Shown: piece by piece, positions 4,043-15,255 of the stretch
Position numbering within the stretch: the first letter of the stretch is position 1
How the letters are laid out: every line of letters starts with the position of its first letter
From: a virus
Taxonomy: Duplodnaviria > Heunggongvirae > Uroviricota > Caudoviricetes
IMG/VR virus record: IMGVR_UViG_3300029843_000046
Reading direction: 5' to 3' (one strand)
Length of the DNA stretch: 15,255 nt
Position numbers and translations under genes: made by a program
The notes under the pieces: model-generated
The model's database searches: none
Told to the model about the DNA's origin: nothing
Seen by the model: the letters and a program-made list of their open reading frames with translations, nothing else

Positions 4043-4482
4043 ATTTTGCCCTCAGACTGGCGCGTGAGATGGGGCGACCCGACTGGCGCGCCATGCTTGC
4101 CGGGATGACATCCACCGAATATGCCGACTGGCGACATTTTTACCGTACGCATTATTTTCACGATACCCAACTGGATATGCATTTTTCCGGGCTGACGTAC
4201 GCCGTACTCAGCCTGTTTTTTTGCGATCCGGATATGCATCCCTCGGACTTCAGCCTGCTTGTCCCCCGGCGTGAGGAAGAGCAGACGGCGATGCCGGATG
4301 AGGACAAAATGCTGATGCAGAAAGCGGCAGGACTTTCCGGAGGCGTCCGGTTCGGTGGGGACGGAGGGCGCGATATTTTATCGTCTGCGGATGTGGCGGA
4401 TGTCATGGTGGATGATGCCGCATTAATGATGGCTTCAGCGGGGATTCCGGGAGGTGTGAGATATGTCCCAGCCGGTTGGTGA
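3611..4482 (+). CDS. T: Tail assembly chaperone G-T fusion, made by -1 frameshift at 4018-4024
   Basis: The -1 frame after the slippery site encodes ...LALRLAREMGRPDWRAMLAGMTSTEYADWRHFYRTHYFHD..., matching the lambda gpT portion as I recall it. The stop at 4480-4482 overlaps the H start region. The translated product is not a simple ORF because of the frameshift. Confidence 0.8.
4018..4024 (+). other. -1 programmed ribosomal frameshift slippery heptamer G GGA AAG (G to G-T)
   Basis: GGGAAAG is in the G frame as G-GGA-AAG (codons 4019-4021 and 4022-4024). The -1 frame from 4024 is open and continues in frame into the ORF ending at 4482; 4069 minus 4024 is 45. Confidence 0.85.
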
Positions 4483-7036
4483 TCTTGTTATTGACCTTAG
4501 TCTGGATGCTGTCCGTTTCGATGAGCAGATGAGCCGGGTAAGGCGTCATTTTTCAGGTCTGGATACCGACGCCAGAAAAACCGCCAGTGCTGTTGAACAG
4601 GGCCTGAGCCGCCAGGCGCTGGCTGCACAAAAAGCCGGGATTTCCGTCGGGCAGTATAAAGCGGCCATGCGAACCCTGCCCGCACAGTTTACGGATATCG
4701 CCACGCAGCTTGCCGGTGGTCAGAATCCCTGGCTCATCCTGCTGCAACAGGGTGGTCAGGTGAAGGACTCCTTCGGCGGGATGATCCCCATGTTCCGGGG
4801 GCTTGCCGGTGCGATCACCCTGCCGATGGTCGGGGTCACCTCGCTGGCGGTGGCGACAGGTGCGCTGGCGTACGCCTGGTACCAGGGAGATTCCACGCTT
4901 TCAGCGTTTAATAAAACCCTGGTTCTTTCAGGTAATCAGTCCGGACTGACTGCCGATCGCATGCTGACGCTCTCCAGAGCCGGACAGGCAACTGGGCTGA
5001 CGTTTAACCAGGCGAGAGAGTCACTGGCAGCCCTGGTGAATGCCGGTGTGCGTGGTGGTGAACAGTTTGAGGCAATCAACCAGAGTGTTGCGCGTTTTGC
5101 GTCTGCATCCGGTGTGGAGGTGGATAAAGTCGCTGAAGCCTTCGGGAAGCTGACCACTGACCCGACGTCGGGACTGATGGCGATGGCGCGCCAGTTCCAT
5201 AACGTGACGGCAGAGCAGATTGCGTATGTTGCACAGCTGCAGCGTTCCGGCGATGAAGTCGGGGCATTGCAGGCGGCGAACGATATCGCCACGAAAGGCT
5301 TTGATGAGCAGACCCGTAGCCTGAAAGAAAACATGGGGACGCTGGAGACCTGGGCGGATAAAACAGGGAAGGCGTTCAAATCGATGTGGGATGCCATTCT
5401 GGATATCGGTCGTCCTGAGTCCTCAGCGGATATGCTCGCCAGTGCACAGAAGGCATTTGATGAGGCGGATAAAAAATGGCAGTGGTACCAGAGCCGGAGC
5501 CAGCGCCGGGGAAAAACCGCCTCTTTTCGTGCCAACCTTCAGGGCGCATGGGATGACCGGGAAAATGCCCGTCTGGGTCTGGCAGCGGCAACGCTGCAGT
5601 CGGATATGGAAAAAGCCGGTGAACTGGCGGCAAGGGACAGGGCTGAGCGTGAGTCGTCACAGCTGAAGTATACCGGAGAGGCGCAGAAGGCGTATGAGCG
5701 CCTGCTGACGCCACTGGAGAAATATACCGCCCGGCAGGAAGAGCTGAATAAGGCCCTGAAAGACGGGAAAATCCTGCAGGCGGATTACAACACGCTGATG
5801 GCGTCGGCAAAAAAGGATTATGAATCGACGCTGAAAAAGCCATCTGCTGTGAAGGTGTCTGCCGGTGAGCGTCAGGAAGACCGGGCGCATGCATCCATGC
5901 TGGCGCTTGAAACCGAGCTCAGGACGCTGGAAAAACACAGCGGTGTGAATGAGAAAATCAGCCAGCAGCGCCGGGATTTATGGAAAGCGGAAAATCAGTA
6001 TGTGGTCCTGAAAGAGGCCGCCACGAAACGGCAGTTATCTGAGCAGGAAAAATCCCTGCTGGCTCATGAGAAAGAGACGCTGGAGTACAAACGCCAGCTG
6101 GCTGAGCTGGGAGACAAGATTGAACACCAGAAACGGCTGAATGAGCTGGCACAGCAGGCGGCGCGGTTTGAACAGCAGCAGAGCGCGAAGCAGGCGGCAA
6201 TCAGCGCAAAAGCCCGCGGACTCACCGACCGTCAGGCGCAGCGGGAGTCGGAAGAGCAGCGCCTTCGTGAGGTGTACGGTGATAATCCGGCTGCGCTGGC
6301 GAAGGCCACATCGGCACTGAAGAACACCTGGTCTGCGGAGGAGCAGCTTCGTGGAAGCTGGATGGCCGGGATGAAGTCCGGCTGGGGAGAGTGGGCGGAA
6401 AGTGCGACGGACAGTTTTTCGCAGGTTAAAAACGCGGCCACGCAGACCTTTGATGGTATTGCGCAGAATATGGCGGCGATGCTGACCGGCAGTGAGCAGA
6501 ACTGGCGCAGCTTCACCCGCTCCGTGCTGTCCATGATGACAGAAATTCTGCTTAAGCAGGCAATGGTGGGGATTGTCGGAAGTATCGGCAGCGCCATTGG
6601 CGGGGCTGTTGGTGGTGGCGCATCCGCGTCAGGCGGTACAGCCATTCAGGCAGCTGCGGCGAAATTCCATTTTGCGACCGGAGGATTTACGGGAACCGGC
6701 GGCAAATATGAGCCAGCGGGGATTGTTCACCGTGGTGAATTTGTCTTCACGAAGGAGGCAACCAGCCGGATTGGCGTAGGAAATCTTTACCGGCTGATGC
6801 GCGGCTATGCCACCGGTGGTTATGTCGGCGGTGCCGGAAGTCCGGCGCAGATGCGGCGGGCCGAAGGTATTAATTTTAATCAGAACAATCACGTGGTGAT
6901 TCAGAACGACGGTATCAACGGACAGGCGGGGTCGCAGCTGATGAAGGCGGTGTATGACATGGCCCGCAAGGGGGCACAGGATGAACTCCGGCTGCAGTTG
7001 CGTGATGGCGGTCTGTTATCAGGGAGCGGTCGATGA
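4463..7036 (+). CDS. H: Tail tape measure protein H
   Basis: 857 aa (lambda gpH is 853 aa) with GGAGGTG ribosome-binding site. Extensive colinearity with lambda gpH as I recall it (VGDLV.DLSLDA.RFDEQM.RVRRHFSG, SAEEQLRGSWMAG, and the glycine-rich C-terminal block IGSAIGGAVGGGASASGG). The stop overlaps the M start. Confidence 0.95.
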   Translation: MSQPVGDLVIDLSLDAVRFDEQMSRVRRHFSGLDTDARKTASAVEQGLSRQALAAQKAGISVGQYKAAMRTLPAQFTDIATQLAGGQNPWLILLQQGGQVKDSFGGMIPMFRGLAGAITLPMVGVTSLAVATGALAYAWYQGDSTLSAFNKTLVLSGNQSGLTADRMLTLSRAGQATGLTFNQARESLAALVNAGVRGGEQFEAINQSVARFASASGVEVDKVAEAFGKLTTDPTSGLMAMARQFHNVTAEQIAYVAQLQRSGDEVGALQAANDIATKGFDEQTRSLKENMGTLETWADKTGKAFKSMWDAILDIGRPESSADMLASAQKAFDEADKKWQWYQSRSQRRGKTASFRANLQGAWDDRENARLGLAAATLQSDMEKAGELAARDRAERESSQLKYTGEAQKAYERLLTPLEKYTARQEELNKALKDGKILQADYNTLMASAKKDYESTLKKPSAVKVSAGERQEDRAHASMLALETELRTLEKHSGVNEKISQQRRDLWKAENQYVVLKEAATKRQLSEQEKSLLAHEKETLEYKRQLAELGDKIEHQKRLNELAQQAARFEQQQSAKQAAISAKARGLTDRQAQRESEEQRLREVYGDNPAALAKATSALKNTWSAEEQLRGSWMAGMKSGWGEWAESATDSFSQVKNAATQTFDGIAQNMAAMLTGSEQNWRSFTRSVLSMMTEILLKQAMVGIVGSIGSAIGGAVGGGASASGGTAIQAAAAKFHFATGGFTGTGGKYEPAGIVHRGEFVFTKEATSRIGVGNLYRLMRGYATGGYVGGAGSPAQMRRAEGINFNQNNHVVIQNDGINGQAGSQLMKAVYDMARKGAQDELRLQLRDGGLLSGSGR

Positions 7037-9392: not shown

Positions 9393-9438
9393 AAAGAATA
9401 AAAAAATCCCGCAGTGATCGCGGACAGGAACTGCGGGA
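9391..9438 (-). terminator. Minus-strand intrinsic terminator: 8-bp stem (9431-9438 / 9407-9414), then a U-run on the minus strand from 9406 to 9391
   Basis: Inverted repeat TCCCGCAG ... CTGCGGGA with a 16-nt loop. On the minus strand it is followed by TTTTTTTATTCTTTTT; on the + strand no T-run follows, so it is oriented for leftward transcription. Confidence 0.5.
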
Positions 9439-9496
9439 GAGTTACGAAGATTAAGTGTAAGGAATTATTCTTATATCACGACAAAAAAATTAACGC
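9395..9496 (-). ncRNA. Candidate ~100-nt small RNA in the I-J spacer, antisense to the late operon (predicted only)
   Basis: Bounded by the minus-strand promoter (-10 TATAAT at 9508-9503) and the minus-strand terminator (9438-9391). The AU-rich body has no ATG in any frame. Start and end are approximate. Confidence 0.3.
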
Positions 9497-9502
9497 AGAG
9501 AA

Positions 9503-9530
9503 ATTATACGCGCCACAGTCAGTTTGTGAA
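9503..9530 (-). promoter_or_regulatory. Sigma70-like promoter on the minus strand: -35 TTCACA (9530-9525), 16-bp spacer, -10 TATAAT (9508-9503)
   Basis: Read directly from the reverse complement: TTCACA-aactgactgtggcgcg-TATAAT, with an AT-rich upstream region and a second TTCACA copy 8 bp further upstream. Predicted transcription start near 9496. Confidence 0.45.
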
Positions 9531-9602
9531 AATGTGAAGATATTCAGAATTTTTATGCCATTACCGGTTTTAACCAACAGGATTATCGGTGGGCATGAAA
9601 GA

Positions 9603-9638
9603 AAACCCCGGTATCTGCTGATACCGGGGTTTCTCTTT
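9603..9638. terminator. Perfect 12-bp hairpin (AAACCCCGGTAT / ATACCGGGGTTT, loop CTGCTG) with T-rich flanks on both strands; possibly bidirectional
   Basis: Left arm 9603-9614, right arm 9621-9632, read from the sequence. CTCTTT follows on the + strand and TTTTC on the minus strand. Confidence 0.55.
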
Positions 9639-9735
9639 AGCATGGCAGAAATGTGTTTCATGCTTTTCGGGCGAAGGATATCCGACTTCTGTACGGAATG
9701 GCAAGTGGCGGTTAATTTATTCAGGGGAAGGCTGT

Positions 9736-12700
9736 ATGGGAAAAGGTGGCGGTAAGGCACACACGCCTCGTGAGGCGAAGGATAATCTCAAATCCACGCA
9801 GATGATGAGCGTGATTGATGCGATTGGTGAGGGACCGATAGAAGGTCCGGTGAAGGGACTGCAGAGTATCCTGGTGAACAAAACCCCGCTGACGGACACG
9901 GACGGTAATCCCGTGATACACGGTGTGACGGCGGTCTGGCGCGCCGGGGAGCAGGAGCAGACACCACCGGAAGGCTTTGAGTCCTCCGGAGCTGAAACCG
10001 GACTGGGCGTGGAAGTGACGAAGGCAAAACCGGTGACGCGCACCATTACGTCCGCGAACATTGACCGCCTGCGGGTTACCTTCGGGGTGCAGTCACTGGT
10101 GCAGACCACGTCAAAGGGCGACCGTAATCCTTCCTCTGTCCGGATTCTGATTCAGTTACAGAGTAATGGCCGCTGGGTGACGGAAAAGGATGTCACCATT
10201 AACGGCAAGACCACCTCGCAGTTCCTGGCGTCGGTGATTCTGGATAATCTGCCGCCCCGCCCCTTTAACATCCGGATGGTCCGGGAGACGGCGGACAGCA
10301 CCACGGACCAGTTGCAGAATAAGACGCTCTGGTCGTCATACACCGAAATCATCGATGTGAAACAGTGCTACCCGAACACGGCGATTGTGGGCCTGCAGGT
10401 GGATGCGGAGCAGTTTGGTGGTCAGCAGATGGCTGTGAACTACCATATCCGCGGTCGCATCATTCAGGTGCCGTCAAACTATGACCCGGAAAAACGCACG
10501 TACAGTGGTATCTGGGACGGCAGCCTGAAACCGGCATACAGCAACAATCCGGCCTGGTGTCTGTGGGACATGCTGACTCACCCGCGCTACGGCATGGGAA
10601 AACGTCTGGGGGCGGCGGATGTGGACAAGTGGGCGCTGTATGCCATCGGGCAGTACTGCGACCAGACGGTCCCGGATGGTTTCGGGGGGACCGAGCCGCG
10701 GATGACCTTTAATGCGTACCTGGCACAACAGCGTAAGGCGTGGGACGTTCTCAGTGATTTCTGCTCTGCGATGCGCTGTATGCCGGTATGGAACGGTCAG
10801 ACGCTGACGTTTGTTCAGGACCGCCCGTCGGATGTGGTGTGGCCGTACACCAACAGCGATGTGGTGGTGGATGATAACGGCGTGGGGTTCCGCTACAGCT
10901 TCAGTGCCCTGAAGGACCGGCACACGGCGGTGGAGGTGAATTACACCGACCCGCAGAACGGGTGGCAGACCTCCACGGAACTGGTGGAAGACCCGGAAGC
11001 CATACTGCGCTACGGACGCAACCTGCTGAAGATGGACGCGTTCGGCTGTACCAGCCGCGGTCAGGCCCACCGTGCCGGACTGTGGGTGATAAAGACCGAA
11101 CTGCTGGAAACGCAGACGGTGGATTTCACGCTCGGGTCTCAGGGGCTGCGGCACACACCCGGTGACATCATTGAAATCTGTGATAACGACTATGCCGGAA
11201 CCCTGACCGGCGGACGTGTCCTGTCCATCGATGCCGCCACCCGCACCCTGACGCTGGACCGTGAAGTGACACTTCCGGAGACCGGTGCCGCCACGGTGAA
11301 CCTGATTAACGGTAGCGGTAAGCCGGTGAGTGTGGACATCACCGCACACCCCGCGCCGGACCGGATACAGGTCAGTACCCTGCCTGATGGTGTGGAGACA
11401 TACGGGGTGTGGGGACTCTCCCTGCCGTCACTGCGCCGTCGCCTGTTCCGCTGTGTCTCCGTCCGGGAAAACACGGACGGCACCTTTGCCATCACGGCGG
11501 TGCAGCACGTACCGGAAAAAGAAGCCATCGTGGATAACGGGGCCCGCTTTGAGCCGCAGTCAGGCACCCTGAACAGCGTTATCCCACCGGCAGTGCAGCA
11601 CCTGACGGTGGAGGTGAGCGCAGCTGACGGCCAGTATCTGGCGCGGGCGAAATGGGACACGCCGCGGGTGGTGAAGGGCGTGCGCTTCAGTCTGCGCCTG
11701 ACCAGTGGTAAGGGAACGGATGCCAGACTGGTGACCACCGCTATCACCGCAGACACGGAGCACCGTTTCAGCGGCCTGCCGCTCGGGGAATACACCCTGA
11801 CGGTGCGGGCGATAAACAGCTATGGCCAGCAGGGTGAACCCGCCACCACCACCTTCCGGATTAACGCGCCAGCAAAACCCGCCACCATTGAGCTGACGCC
11901 GGGGTATTTTCAGATAACGGCGGTCCCGCGTCTTGCGGTGTATGACCCGACGGTACAGTTTGAACTCTGGTTCTCAGAAAAACGCATCACGAACACGGCA
12001 CAGGTGGAAAAATCTGCCCGTTATCTGGGGACCGGCAGTCAGTGGACTGTCCAGGGGAGCCGGATTAAGCCGGGGACGGATTTCTGGTTTTACGTGCGCA
12101 GCGTCAACCTGGTGGGAAAATCTGCTTTTGTGGAAGCCAGCGGGCAGCCCAGCAATGATGGTGAAGGGTATCTGGAAATTTTCCGGGGGCTGATAGATGA
12201 GACGCTGCTGGGCCAGGCACTGAAAAAGCGCATTGATGCTTCAGCGCTGCGTACGGAGGTCACGCAACTGGAAGAAGATATCCGTCAGCGGATGGACACG
12301 GATATCGCAGAAGTGACCCGGAAAATCGGGAAGGCGGAAAACAGCCTCACGCAGCTGGTTGCGAAAAAGAATGAGGACCAGACACTGGCCATCGCGCAGG
12401 TGAGCCAGAAAGTGGACCGGGTGAGCAGTGAAATCTCACAGACTGTCAGCCAGGGGCAGTCAGAAAACGCCCGACAGATAGCACAGGTCCGCCAGTACGT
12501 GGATAAAAAAGGGAGTGAAATTACCTCGACCACGGATAAAAAGCTGGGTGACCAGGCCGTGACCATACAGCAAATCCAGCGGGTTCAGTCAGACACGCGC
12601 AATGAGCTGAATGCCATGTATATGCTGAAGGTGCAGAAAACAAAAAACGGTATTCCCTATGTGGCCGGGATTGGTGCGGGGATTGAGGATGTTGATGGTC

Positions 12701-13428
12701 AGACCCTGAGTAACATTCTGCTGCAGGCCGATCGCATTGCGATGATTACCCCGGAGAACGGCAACACCACGCCGCTGTTTGTGGCGCAGGGGAATCAGCT
12801 GTTCATGAACGACGTGTTCCTGAAGCGACTGTTTGCGGTGAGCATCACGTCATCCGGCAATCCTCCTACGTTTTCCCTGACGCCGGATGGCAGGCTGGCA
12901 GCCCGCAATGCGGATATCAGTGGAGCCATCACGGCGAATACCGGCACGCTCAATAATGTCACCATTAACGAGAACTGTGTCATCAGAGGGAAACTGTCTG
13001 CAAACCAGATTGAAGGCGATCTCGTTAAAACAGTGGGTAAGGCTTTCCCCCGTGACTCCCGTGCACCGGAGAGGTGGCCATCAGGGACCATTACCGTCAG
13101 GGTTTATGACGATCAGCCGTTTGACCGGCAAATTGTTATTCCGGCGGTGGCATTCAGCGGTGCCAGACATGAGCGGGAGAATAACGATATTTATTCGTCA
13201 TGCCGCCTGATAGTACGGAAAAACGGTGCTGAAATTTATAACCGTACCGCGCTGGATAATACGCTGGTTTACAGTGGTGTTATTGATATGCCTGCTGGTC
13301 GCGGCCACATGACGCTGGAGTTTTCTGTATCAGCATGGTGGGTAAATGGCTGGTATCCCACAGCAAGTATCAGCGATTTGCTGGTTGTTGTGATGAAGAA
13401 AGCCACTGCAGGCATCACGATTAGCTGA
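9736..13428 (+). CDS. J: Central tail fibre / host specificity protein J
   Basis: 1230 aa with AGGGGAAGG ribosome-binding site. N-terminus [22 protein letters not shown] and long blocks ([96 protein letters not shown], the C-terminal block ending [17 protein letters not shown]...[19 protein letters not shown]) match lambda gpJ as I recall it. Confidence 0.95.
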
Positions 13429-13446: not shown

Positions 13447-13472
13447 GGGCGCCAGAAATGGCGCCTTTTTTA
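13447..13472 (+). terminator. Intrinsic terminator downstream of J (7-bp stem GGCGCCA/TGGCGCC, GAAA loop, then TTTTTTATT)
   Basis: Stem 13448-13454 / 13459-13465 with a GAAA tetraloop and a T-run at 13466-13472, read from the sequence. Confidence 0.7.
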
Positions 13473-13495: not shown

Positions 13496-14095
13496 ATGCG
13501 TAAATTATGTGCTGTTATTCTGTCCGCAGTAGTCTGGCTGGTTGCCGCTGGTACGCCAGCGAGCGCAGCAGAGCATCAGTCCACACTAAGCGCCGGGTAT
13601 CTTCAGACCCACACTGATATGCCAGGCAGCGATAATCTGAACGGGATTAACGTGAAATACCGTTATGAGTTTACGGACGCGCTGGGGCTGATTACGTCCT
13701 TCAGTTATGCCAATGCTGAGGATGAGCAAAAAACGCACTACAGCGATACCCGCTGGCATGAAGATTCCGTGCGTAACCGCTGGTTCAGCGTGATGGCGGG
13801 GCCATCTGTACGCGTGAATGAATGGTTCAGTGCTTATGCGATGGCAGGTGTGGCTTACAGCCGTGTGTCGACGTTCTCCGGGGATTATCTCCGCGTAACT
13901 GACAACAAGGGGAAAACGCACGATGTGCTGACCGGAAGTGATGACGATCGCCACAGCAACACGTCTCTGGCGTGGGGAGCTGGCGTGCAGTTTAACCCGA
14001 CCGAATCCGTGACCATTGATATTGCTTATGAAGGTTCCGGTAGTGGCGACTGGCGAACGGATGCATTTATTGTTGGTATCGGATACCGTTTCTGA
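13496..14095 (+). CDS. lom: Lom outer-membrane protein (Ail/Lom/PagC/OmpX family 8-strand beta-barrel); moron
   Basis: 199 aa with a signal peptide (MRKLCAVILSAVVWLVAAGTPASA then AE) and a C-terminal beta-barrel signature (DIAYEGSGSGDWRTDAFIVGIGYRF) ending in Phe. Conserved blocks (NGINVKYRYE, VMAGP, SAYAMAGVA) match lambda Lom as I recall it. It lies between J and stf, as in lambda. Confidence 0.9.
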   Translation: MRKLCAVILSAVVWLVAAGTPASAAEHQSTLSAGYLQTHTDMPGSDNLNGINVKYRYEFTDALGLITSFSYANAEDEQKTHYSDTRWHEDSVRNRWFSVMAGPSVRVNEWFSAYAMAGVAYSRVSTFSGDYLRVTDNKGKTHDVLTGSDDDRHSNTSLAWGAGVQFNPTESVTIDIAYEGSGSGDWRTDAFIVGIGYRF

Positions 14096-14199
14096 CAACA
14101 GACGCCGATTTATCTTCTGTAAATATTGTTATGATACGCAGGTTCATCCGCCTTATGGGGTGAACTGCGTTTGAGGAAACGTAAAGTTACACTGTCCTG

Positions 14200-14233
14200 A
14201 AGCCCGTGGCGTCACTGCTGCGGGCTTTTTTTA
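14200..14233 (+). terminator. Intrinsic terminator between lom and stf (stem AAGCCCG / CGGGCTT, then T-run)
   Basis: Inverted repeat 14200-14206 / 14221-14227 with a 14-nt loop, followed by a run of T's; read from the sequence. Confidence 0.6.
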
Positions 14234-14246
14234 TTGGTGGAAAAGT

Positions 14247-15255
14247 ATGACAGTAAAAATTTCTGGCGTGCTTAAAGATGGCACAGGAAAACCAGTACAG
14301 AACTGCACCATTGTGCTGAAGGCCAGACGGACCAGCAGCACGGTGGTGGTGAACACGGTGGCCTCTGAAAATCCGGATGAAGCCGGGCGTTACAGCATGG
14401 ATGTTGAGTATGGCCAGTACAGCGTCACCCTGCTGGTTGAAGATTTTCCGCCTTCACATGCCGGGACCATTACCGTCTATGAAGGTTCCAGACCAGGTAC
14501 GCTGAATGATTTTCTCGGCGCCATGACGGAGGATGATGTTCGTCCGGAGGCACTGCGCCGTTTTGAGCTGATGGTGAATGAAGTGGCACGTCATGCCGGA
14601 GCGTCATCACAGAGTGCAGCGGCGGCAAAGAAATCCGAAACGGCAGCAGCCTCATCGAAGAATGCGGCGAAAACCTCAGAAACGAATGCAGCTAACAGCG
14701 CACAGGCGGCAGCGGCCTCGCAGACTGCATCGGCAAACTCCGCGACAGCAGCCAAAAAATCAGAAACCAGCGCGAAAAATAGCGAGACAGCCACAAAGGC
14801 CAGCGAAAAAAACGCAAAATCCAGCCAGACGGCAGCGAAAACCAGTGAGACGAATGCCAAAGACAGTGAAGCCAACGCAAAGGTGAGCGAAACAGCGGCG
14901 GCGAACTCGGCGAAAGCATCGGCAGCAAGCCAGACGGCAGCAAAAGCAAGTGAAGATGCTGCCAGAGAATACGCAAACCAGACAGCAGAGCCGTACAGAT
15001 ATGTTTTACAGCCGCTGCCGGATGTGTGGATACCCTTTAATGATTCGCTGGATATGATTACGGGCTATTCTCCGGGTTATAAAAAAGTGAAGATTGGTGA
15101 TAATGTGGTTCAGGTTGCCAGTGATAAACAGGTTAATTTCAGTCGCGCATCAACGGCAACATATATCAACAAATCTGGCGAACTGAAAACGGCGGAAATT
15201 AATGAGCCGCGATTTGAGTGTGATGGCCTGCTTATTGAGGGACAAAGAACGAACT
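14247..15255 (+). CDS. stf: Side tail fibre protein Stf, 5' portion (truncated by window end)
   Basis: ATG at 14247; the frame is open for 336 codons to the window edge. It is absent from the ORF track because it has no stop in the window. N-terminus MTVKISGVLKDGTGKPVQNCTI...GRYSMDVEYGQYSV...FPPSHAGTITVYE matches lambda Stf (orf-401) as I recall it, followed by an Ala/Ser/Thr/Lys/Glu-rich quasi-repetitive shaft. Confidence 0.85.
   Translation, partial: MTVKISGVLKDGTGKPVQNCTIVLKARRTSSTVVVNTVASENPDEAGRYSMDVEYGQYSVTLLVEDFPPSHAGTITVYEGSRPGTLNDFLGAMTEDDVRPEALRRFELMVNEVARHAGASSQSAAAAKKSETAAASSKNAAKTSETNAANSAQAAAASQTASANSATAAKKSETSAKNSETATKASEKNAKSSQTAAKTSETNAKDSEANAKVSETAAANSAKASAASQTAAKASEDAAREYANQTAEPYRYVLQPLPDVWIPFNDSLDMITGYSPGYKKVKIGDNVVQVASDKQVNFSRASTATYINKSGELKTAEINEPRFECDGLLIEGQRTN

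What the first reader, a model, noticed from the sequence alone, without database searches (positions are those of the whole stretch)
14610..15255. Stf: conserved N-terminus, low-complexity repeat shaft, then a distal domain I could not match to lambda Stf
The first ~110 aa match lambda Stf closely. A quasi-repetitive Ala/Ser/Thr/Lys/Glu/Asn shaft follows, with recurring SETNA- and AAK-type motifs, at about 14610-14960. From about 14990 the sequence (PYRYVLQPLPDVWIPFNDSLDMITGYSPGYKKVKIGDNVVQVASDKQ...RFECDGLLIEGQRTN) does not correspond to anything I recall in lambda Stf. Tail-fibre distal domains are the main host-range and mosaicism hotspot, and this one may be a distinct receptor-binding or enzymatic domain. 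It is cut off by the window end.
Basis: partly seen in the sequence, partly recalled or inferred. Interest (0 to 1): 0.4.

Follow-up and report, generated by a model that had tools for sequence, protein, structure and literature searches.

The report
Lambda-type side fibre with lectin-like tip
This is the start of a prophage side tail fibre gene (identical to one in E. coli CFT073) that keeps lambda's tail-attachment end and coiled-coil stalk but ends in a common, already catalogued sugar-binding-type head instead of lambda's needle tip; it is an ordinary example of tail-fibre module swapping.

Summary
An ORF starts at window 14247 and runs off the end. Its full 687-aa product was read from the identical E. 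coli CFT073 locus.

- **Attachment end (aa 1-117):** 85% identical to lambda Stf.
- **Stalk (aa 124-247):** a strict 18-heptad repeat, E-T-A-A-K-x-S. This is a coiled-coil stalk, as in lambda, not mere low complexity.
- **Distal part (from aa 248, nt 14988):** no similarity to lambda Stf.

The distal 440 aa give a confident model (pLDDT 93) of two lectin-type jelly rolls:
- The first is a GTA_spike_fiber domain (NCBIfam NF048003). A family profile matches the capsule-binding head-spike fibre of RcGTA at E = 4.8e-41.
- The second is LamG/pentraxin-like.
- No beta-helix, no C-terminal chaperone domain and no enzyme-like best match were found.

The module is widespread. It occurs in 229 phage records (lambdoid, T5-like, Dhillonvirus, Nonagvirus, Drexlerviridae, rV5-like) and 290 complete E. 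coli genomes. It is 61% identical to the "galectin-like domain" already described for phage IrisVonRoten Gp22.

In every locus examined it is followed by a conserved ~92-aa protein of unknown function. Here intact tfa is missing and only remnants remain.

Most likely function (inferred, not shown): a multivalent, non-enzymatic surface-glycan binder for reversible first adsorption. Low novelty.

The parts
14247..15255 (+). 5' part (336 of 687 codons) of the side tail fibre gene stf, cut off by the window end
   Evidence: Open frame from ATG 14247. It is 100% identical to CFT073 C_RS06885 / WP_000216560.1, annotated 'prophage tail fiber N-terminal domain-containing protein'. It matches phrog_1419 'tail protein' at 1178.9 bits.
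14247..14519 (+). Collar (tail-attachment) domain, aa 1-91
   Evidence: 87% identical to the solved lambda gpStfN chain 9e7m, E = 2.4e-47. PF08400 scores 226 bits. In Ur-lambda, residues 1-91 form a 12-copy collar around the tail (PMC12617516).
14520..14549 (+). Linker, aa 92-101. The boundary is taken by alignment to Ur-lambda Stf.
   Evidence: Aligned without gaps to lambda Stf. Lambda residues 92-101 are a flexible linker (PMC12617516). This is inferred by homology.
14550..14987 (+). Coiled-coil stalk, aa 102-247. It includes 18 heptads E-T-A-A-K-x-S from aa 124 (nt 14616).
   Evidence: Lag-7 identity is 0.43 against 0.187 +/- 0.032 in shuffles, 0 of 5000 reaching it, with a Ser/Ala register. 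The equivalent lambda segment, residues 102-393, is a trimeric coiled coil (PMC12617516). The stalk here is about half that length.
14988..15255 (+). Conserved N-terminal edge (first ~89 aa of 440) of the distal lectin-like module. The rest lies beyond the window (CFT073 locus L001:10156-11211).
   Evidence: No similarity to lambda Stf. The nearly invariant motif PLPDVWIP..DSL and FsRAStATY..EPRFE..GLLIEG.TN is shared by 52 diverse relatives. Median identity is 53% here against 19-22% in the variable cores. The AF2 model has pLDDT 93.

Best explanation
The feature is the side tail fibre (Stf) of a lambdoid prophage and is built from three modules. Module 1 is a lambda-type collar domain that anchors the fibre to the tail. 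Module 2 is a short trimeric heptad coiled-coil stalk, roughly 146 residues and on the order of 20 nm. Module 3 is a 440-aa C-terminal head made of two lectin-type jelly rolls: a GTA_spike_fiber domain followed by a LamG/pentraxin-like domain.

The head replaces lambda's intertwined gp37-like needle and its Tfa chaperone. It most likely folds chain by chain, so each trimeric fibre would carry three separate heads. With four fibres per virion, as in lambda, that gives twelve heads.

The proposed role is non-enzymatic, low-affinity but multivalent binding of a repetitive surface glycan (O-antigen, capsule or LPS core). This would hold the virion reversibly at the cell surface until the central fibre J finds its outer-membrane receptor. 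Specificity would reside in the two hypervariable cores of the head (aa ~343-509 and ~548-652), both beyond the window.

Shown here: the domain architecture, the homologies, the fold, the distribution and the gene neighbourhood. Inferred: glycan binding, the oligomeric arrangement of the heads, and the role in adsorption.
For: Anchor and stalk:
- 85-87% identity to lambda Stf and to the solved collar 9e7m.
- A strict heptad repeat.
- Lambda Stf is a trimer, four fibres per virion, with a coiled-coil shaft (PMC12617516).

Head:
- The AF2 monomer model has pLDDT 93.1 and pTM 0.90 and is all-beta.
- A family profile hits the RcGTA head-spike fibre Rcc01080 at E = 4.8e-41.
- NCBIfam GTA_spike_fiber scores 68.6 bits against a cut-off of 36, over aa 329-530.
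- Laminin_G_3 is found in 32 of 53 relatives.
- The RcGTA head-spike fibre binds capsular polysaccharide experimentally (PMC10218006 abstract; PMC7296036). It is present as a single subunit per spike. Its homologue in Pa193 is single-copy in each baseplate triplex. The domain is therefore not an obligate trimer.

Variability pattern typical of a receptor-binding domain:
- Edges are conserved (median 40-53% identity) and cores are variable (19-22%).

Portability:
- The same head sits on PF08400, Phage_tail_fib, Tail_spike_N and T5-type anchors.
- An inducible plaque-forming phage, PhiR49_2, carries a 100% identical head.

Literature:
- Lateral fibres of these siphoviruses are thought to bind O-antigen as primary receptor (PMC8594841).
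Against: - No ligand has been demonstrated for any member of this exact module in the papers I could search. Binding is inferred from fold and from a distant homologue, RcGTA.
- Lectin-type jelly rolls also bind proteins. LamG and the botulinum HC domains do so, and lambda's own Stf binds the porin OmpC.
- In T5-like and other virulent phages the module sits on a 'proximal' fibre that carries a second fibre. It may therefore have a structural or docking role there.
- The three-separate-heads arrangement rests on a monomer prediction and on analogies. No multimer model was run.
- Our protein's own Laminin_G_3 score is below Pfam's threshold, 17.9 against 27.6 bits.
Confidence: 0.68

Rival explanations
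1. The head recognises a protein receptor, for example an outer-membrane porin as lambda Stf does with OmpC, rather than a glycan.
Against: The closest sequence relative with an assayed ligand binds capsule polysaccharide. The best fold matches are carbohydrate-binding modules. The extreme diversity of the variable cores and the spread across phages whose lateral fibres are linked to O-antigen fit glycan diversity better.
Confidence: 0.15
2. The head is mainly a structural end-piece or docking platform, possibly together with the 92-aa protein, for a second, truly receptor-binding fibre. It would not itself be a receptor binder.
For: In T5-like, Dhillonvirus, Nonagvirus and Drexlerviridae loci the cassette is followed by a second fibre gene. 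IrisVonRoten Gp22 is described as the proximal fibre that carries the T-shaped Gp24. The structurally related Pa193 gp46 carries a tail-fibre attachment loop.
Against: In the lambdoid versions (CFT073, phage 21) no second fibre gene follows. Only a 97-aa membrane protein, tfa remnants or cargo genes come next. The hypervariable cores are not expected of a pure docking piece. Where the second fibre docks on Gp22 was not established in the text read.
Confidence: 0.1
3. The head is an enzyme (glycanase, lyase or esterase) that degrades or modifies the surface polysaccharide, like a tailspike.
Confidence: 0.05

Closest known systems
Bacteriophage lambda (Ur-lambda) side tail fibre Stf with chaperone Tfa
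   Same: The collar domain is 85-87% identical. It has the same linker and the same kind of Ala/Ser/Thr/Lys/Glu heptad coiled-coil stalk, and the same genomic position after J and lom.
   Different: The stalk is about half as long. Lambda's hinge, distal six-chain coiled coil and gp37-like tip are absent. There is no intact tfa, only two pseudogene remnants downstream. The distal part is a two-domain lectin-type head.
Lateral tail fibre Gp22 of T5-like phage IrisVonRoten (Bas32), the 'proximal fibre with galectin-like domain'
   Same: The C-terminal 436 aa are 61% identical. The same 92-aa gene follows with overlapping stop/start. It also has a coiled-coil shaft with SE(T/L)NA-type repeats.
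   Different: The N-terminal anchor is T5/LtfA-type and binds an LtfC collar. A second, T-shaped fibre gene (Gp24) follows and is thought to attach to Gp22. Nothing equivalent is seen in the prophage.
RcGTA head-spike fibre Rcc01080 (PDB 6tb9; NCBIfam NF048003 GTA_spike_fiber)
   Same: The first jelly roll is homologous: profile E = 4.8e-41 over 236 residues, and NF048003 is passed. It is a flexible adhesin for reversible attachment, and capsule polysaccharide binding has been shown experimentally.
   Different: It is attached to capsid pentons, not the tail. It is present as a single chain per spike, lacks the LamG second domain and the coiled-coil stalk, and has an alphaproteobacterial host.
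Baseplate wedge/triplex proteins Pa193 gp46 and E217 gp45 (PDB 9b45, 8env)
   Different: They are integral baseplate components of myoviruses that hold the tail fibre. They are not the tip of a fibre.
T5 pb1 and DT57C LtfA/LtfB fibre tips with a C-terminal intramolecular chaperone (pfam13884)
   Same: They have the same role in the virion, as lateral fibres binding O-antigen as primary receptor.
   Different: The fold and the assembly logic differ. No S74/IMC domain and no autocleavage motif are detected here.

Membership tests
Lambda-type side tail fibre (Pfam PF08400 phage_tail_N anchor) | N-terminal ~130-aa prophage tail fibre domain scoring above Pfam's gathering score | tested here: met
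   226.4 bits against a cut-off of 26.6, covering aa 1-131. It is 87% identical to the solved lambda gpStfN.
Lambda-type side tail fibre | Gene position directly downstream of J and lom in a lambdoid tail operon | tested here: met
   J lies at 9736-13428, lom at 13496-14095 and stf starts at 14247.
Lambda Stf / T4 gp37-type distal tip with Tfa/gp38-type chaperone | C-terminal region homologous to lambda orf-314 / gp37, and an intact tfa gene immediately downstream | tested here: not met
   There is no significant BLASTP match to orf-314; the best E is 1.3. Only two tfa pseudogene fragments lie downstream.
NCBIfam NF048003 GTA_spike_fiber (phage head spike fiber domain) | Score above the curated cut-off | tested here: met
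   68.6 bits against a cut-off of 36, E = 9.9e-19, aa 329-530 covering profile positions 1-181 of 182. The family profile matches Rcc01080 at E = 4.8e-41.
Pfam PF13385 Laminin_G_3 (concanavalin A-like lectin/glucanase superfamily) | Score above the gathering threshold for the C-terminal domain | tested here: inconclusive
   [not shown]
PHROG phrog_1419 (tail protein) | Full-length match to the family profile | tested here: met
   E = 0, 1178.9 bits, aa 205-686 against profile positions 310-793 of 793.
Tailspike / depolymerase | Right-handed beta-helix or another catalytic domain | tested here: not met
   The model is two jelly rolls with no beta-helix. The best fold matches are non-catalytic modules. 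The weak sequence hits to depolymerases 7vyv and 7lzj lie only in the coiled-coil repeat, aa 149-229.
Fibres with a C-terminal intramolecular chaperone (Peptidase_S74 / pfam13884) | S74/IMC domain with an autocleavage motif at the C-terminus | tested here: not met
   No such Pfam hit was found in this protein or in 53 relatives.
Glycan-binding receptor-binding protein (functional class) | Demonstrated binding to a host surface polysaccharide | not testable with these tools
   Only indirect evidence is available: the fold, the homology to the capsule-binding RcGTA fibre, and the variability pattern.

The most novel reading that the evidence does not exclude
Probability: 0.3. Interest if true: 0.4.

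Novelty: already known. Interest (0 to 1): 0.2.

Why it matters
The practical value is modest.

- It explains why this common uropathogen prophage fibre does not look like lambda's. It also assigns the fibre a concrete architecture: collar, short coiled coil, and a tandem lectin head.
- It points to the variable cores (aa ~343-509 and ~548-652, outside the window) as the likely host-range determinants.
- The head probably folds without a Tfa-type chaperone and already occurs naturally on lambda-type, T5-type and P2-type anchors. It is therefore a plausible plug-in module for engineered lambda-based delivery particles. Such particles currently rely on chimeric Stf proteins (PMC11338833).
- The always-adjacent 92-aa gene is an uncharacterised but very widespread phage gene that would be easy to test.

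Nothing here changes current concepts of tail-fibre mosaicism.

Tried and rejected
- **Tandem Repeats Finder on the DNA**: no array. The shaft repeat exists only at protein level.
- **Single-sequence Pfam scan**: nothing for the distal part. It only became classifiable with NCBIfam, a family profile and the structure model.
- **First homologue search**: the listed hits were all near-identical E. coli copies. Diversity came from the 50%-representative library and tblastn on phages.
- **DT57C LtfA/LtfB** considered as the model for the T5-like homologues. Rejected, because those carry pfam13884 chaperone domains and not this head.
- **Gifsy-1 Stf (LPS-core binder)** is lambda-type, with 50.65% identity to Ur-lambda Stf, so it is not informative for this head.
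- **Papers with no information on this module:** the Eligo preprint and Nature paper, which mention CFT073 only for a primase gene, and a 2026 receptor-prediction preprint.
- **Co-variation of head and small-protein identities across 11 phages:** Spearman 0.46, p = 0.15, not significant. Only synteny is claimed.
- **Rfam scan of the window:** no hit.
- **Enzymatic reading:** rejected on fold grounds.

Full report
**What is there.** The window is the tail-gene region of a lambdoid prophage. The order is major capsid, tape measure (4463-7036), M, L, K, I, J (9736-13428), lom (13496-14095), and then an ORF that starts at ATG 14247 and runs off the window end. Positions 14100-15255 are 100% identical to E. 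coli CFT073 and to many other ExPEC chromosomes. I therefore read the complete gene and its surroundings from CFT073 (locus L001; window coordinate = L001 coordinate + 5099). The gene encodes 687 aa (WP_000216560.1), annotated 'prophage tail fiber N-terminal domain-containing protein'. Its first 336 aa are exactly those encoded in the window.

**Checking the observation.** All three parts of the description hold.

- Residues 1-117 are 85% identical to lambda Stf, and 87% over the 94 residues solved in PDB 9e7m. They pass Pfam PF08400 by a wide margin.
- Residues 118-247 (nt 14598-14987) are 35% Ala, 18% Ser, 12% Lys and 11% Thr, and carry the SETNA/AAK motifs.
- This stretch is not loose low complexity. 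It is 18 consecutive heptads E-T-A-A-K-x-S. Lag-7 identity is 0.43 against 0.187 +/- 0.032 in 5000 shuffles, none reaching it. There is no DNA-level tandem repeat.
- Lambda Stf has the same kind of repeat. In Ur-lambda this segment is a trimeric coiled coil that follows a collar domain (residues 1-91) and a ten-residue linker (PMC12617516). The stalk here is about half as long.
- From aa 248-249 (nt 14988/14991) there is no similarity to either half of lambda Stf.

**What the distal part is.** The last 440 aa match PHROG families annotated only as 'tail protein' (phrog_1419 and phrog_5939).

- A scan of 1.84 billion 50%-identity representatives found 2923 clusters at E <= 0.001. In the full-coverage hits listed, the match ends at the protein's C-terminus.
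- With 52 diverse relatives as alignment, AlphaFold2 gave a confident all-beta model, pLDDT 93.1 and pTM 0.90.
- At sequence level, a profile of the family hits the RcGTA head-spike fibre Rcc01080 at E = 4.8e-41. It hits E217 gp45 / Pa193 gp46 at ~6e-16. Its C-terminal half hits a LamG-like S-layer domain and C-reactive protein.
- NCBIfam NF048003 'GTA_spike_fiber' is passed for aa 329-530, 68.6 bits against 36.
- Pfam Laminin_G_3 is found in 32 of 53 relatives but is sub-threshold in this protein.
- No beta-helix, no S74 intramolecular chaperone domain and no enzyme family is detected.

**Distribution and context.** tblastn finds the head in 229 phage records. These include lambdoids (phage 21, ev207, Lambda_2E9 and the inducible ECOR phages PhiR*), T5-like phages, Dhillonvirus, Nonagvirus, Drexlerviridae and rV5-like myoviruses.

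- The anchors in front of the head differ: PF08400, Phage_tail_fib, Tail_spike_N and T5 LtfA-type. It is therefore a portable module.
- PhiR49_2, a plaque-forming phage, has a 100% identical head.
- Close DNA copies of head plus downstream genes occur in 290 of 5426 complete E. coli genomes. Where the gene is split, RefSeq already labels the fragments 'phage head spike fiber domain-containing protein'.
- Within the module the framing segments are conserved and two cores are hypervariable. Median identity to the query is 53%, 40% and 49% for distal aa 1-95, 263-300 and 406-440. It is 19% and 22% for aa 96-262 and 301-405.
- The 89 residues inside the window belong to the conserved edge.

**The published description.** The head is 61% identical over 436 aa to the C-terminus of Gp22 of the T5-like phage IrisVonRoten. 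Humolli et al. [quoted passage not shown] The module has therefore already been noticed.

No intact tfa follows. In CFT073 the order is stf, a 92-aa gene overlapping the stf stop, a 97-aa two-TM protein, a tfa fragment, a methyltransferase on the other strand, a second tfa fragment, then potB.

- The tfa remnants indicate that a lambda-type stf-tfa end was replaced by this cassette.
- The 92-aa gene (phrog_1361, acidic) is homologous and identically placed in lambdoid, T5-like, Dhillonvirus, Nonagvirus, Drexlerviridae and Vequintavirus loci.
- It occurs in 189 phage records, once each, against 201 records with a near-complete head.
- Its function is unknown. Chaperone and adaptor are both possible.
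- In the virulent phages a second fibre gene follows the pair (a branched fibre). In the lambdoids none does.

**Most likely mechanism.**

Shown:
- A lambda collar, a short heptad coiled coil and a tandem lectin-type head.
- Homology of the first jelly roll to a fibre that binds capsular polysaccharide experimentally (PMC10218006; PMC7296036).
- An RBD-like variability pattern.

Inferred:
- The fibre is a trimer, with four fibres per virion as in lambda.
- The head folds per chain. The monomer model is confident. The RcGTA homologue is a single subunit per spike, and Pa193 gp46 is single-copy per triplex.
- A virion would therefore display up to twelve lectin heads. These would bind a repetitive surface glycan weakly but multivalently, giving reversible first adsorption before J engages its receptor. 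This matches the current view of siphovirus lateral fibres (PMC8594841).

I put this explanation at about 0.68. The rivals are a protein receptor (0.15), a mainly structural or docking role (0.10) and an enzymatic head (0.05).

**Novelty and verdict.** The sequence is an exact copy of an annotated RefSeq protein. Both of its unusual-looking parts belong to catalogued families (PF08400, NF048003, Laminin_G_3-like, phrog_1419). The homologous head has been described in the literature. This is a textbook case of tail-fibre modular exchange. What remains open is experimental: the ligand, and the role of the conserved 92-aa neighbour. Interest is low, about 0.2.

Noticed in passing
[not shown]
   Followed up: yes
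L001:11496-11789: A 97-aa predicted two-TM protein (phrog_1443) follows the 92-aa gene in CFT073 and in phage 21. Its DNA appears to be found in many more E. coli genomes than the fibre head: most of the sampled partial hits among 1904 genomes cover only this 3' segment. This suggests an independent moron, possibly involved in exclusion or conversion.
   Followed up: partly
L001:11808-11927 and 12800-12973; L001:11982-12638 (-): Two tfa (tail fibre assembly) pseudogene fragments flank a SAM-dependent methyltransferase (phrog_2132) at the prophage end next to potB. They are scars of an earlier lambda-type stf-tfa end.
   Followed up: partly
window 14199-14228 and 13447-13466: Terminator-like GC hairpins with T-runs lie between lom and stf (18 nt before the stf ATG) and between J and lom. 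The count is no higher than in shuffles, so this is only suggestive. They could insulate lysogen-expressed lom from the late tail genes.
   Followed up: partly
window 9393-9735: An AT-rich 343-bp spacer lies between I and J, with a strong hairpin around 9598-9631. The mechanical ORF 9414-9755 has no PHROG match and there is no Rfam hit. RefSeq leaves the stretch unannotated.
   Followed up: partly
window 14578-14886 (+), 14591-14875 (-), 14692-14976 (-): Long alternative-frame ORFs lie inside the shaft-coding region. They are by-products of the stop-free GCN/AAR-rich heptad repeat. Lambda's annotated 'orf206b' lies at the equivalent place on the minus strand of stf and is probably the same artefact.
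   Followed up: partly
L004, L005, L006, L007, L009, L010 (T5-like, Dhillonvirus, Nonagvirus, Drexlerviridae loci): In the virulent phages the head plus 92-aa cassette is followed by a second fibre gene (phiEco32-like, 'endosialidase-like', or T-shaped Gp24). This means branched lateral fibres, and the arrangement is absent from the lambdoid versions.
   Followed up: partly
phage records MG065655 / MG065654 / MG065635 ('Campylobacter phage C2/C15/C12') and OR848352 ('Listeria phage LM 4-14-1'): These records carry rV5-like or E. coli-like copies of the head and the 92-aa gene, up to 72.6% identical to the CFT073 head. The host labels look doubtful, suggesting co-isolated coliphages or mislabelled records.
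   Followed up: no
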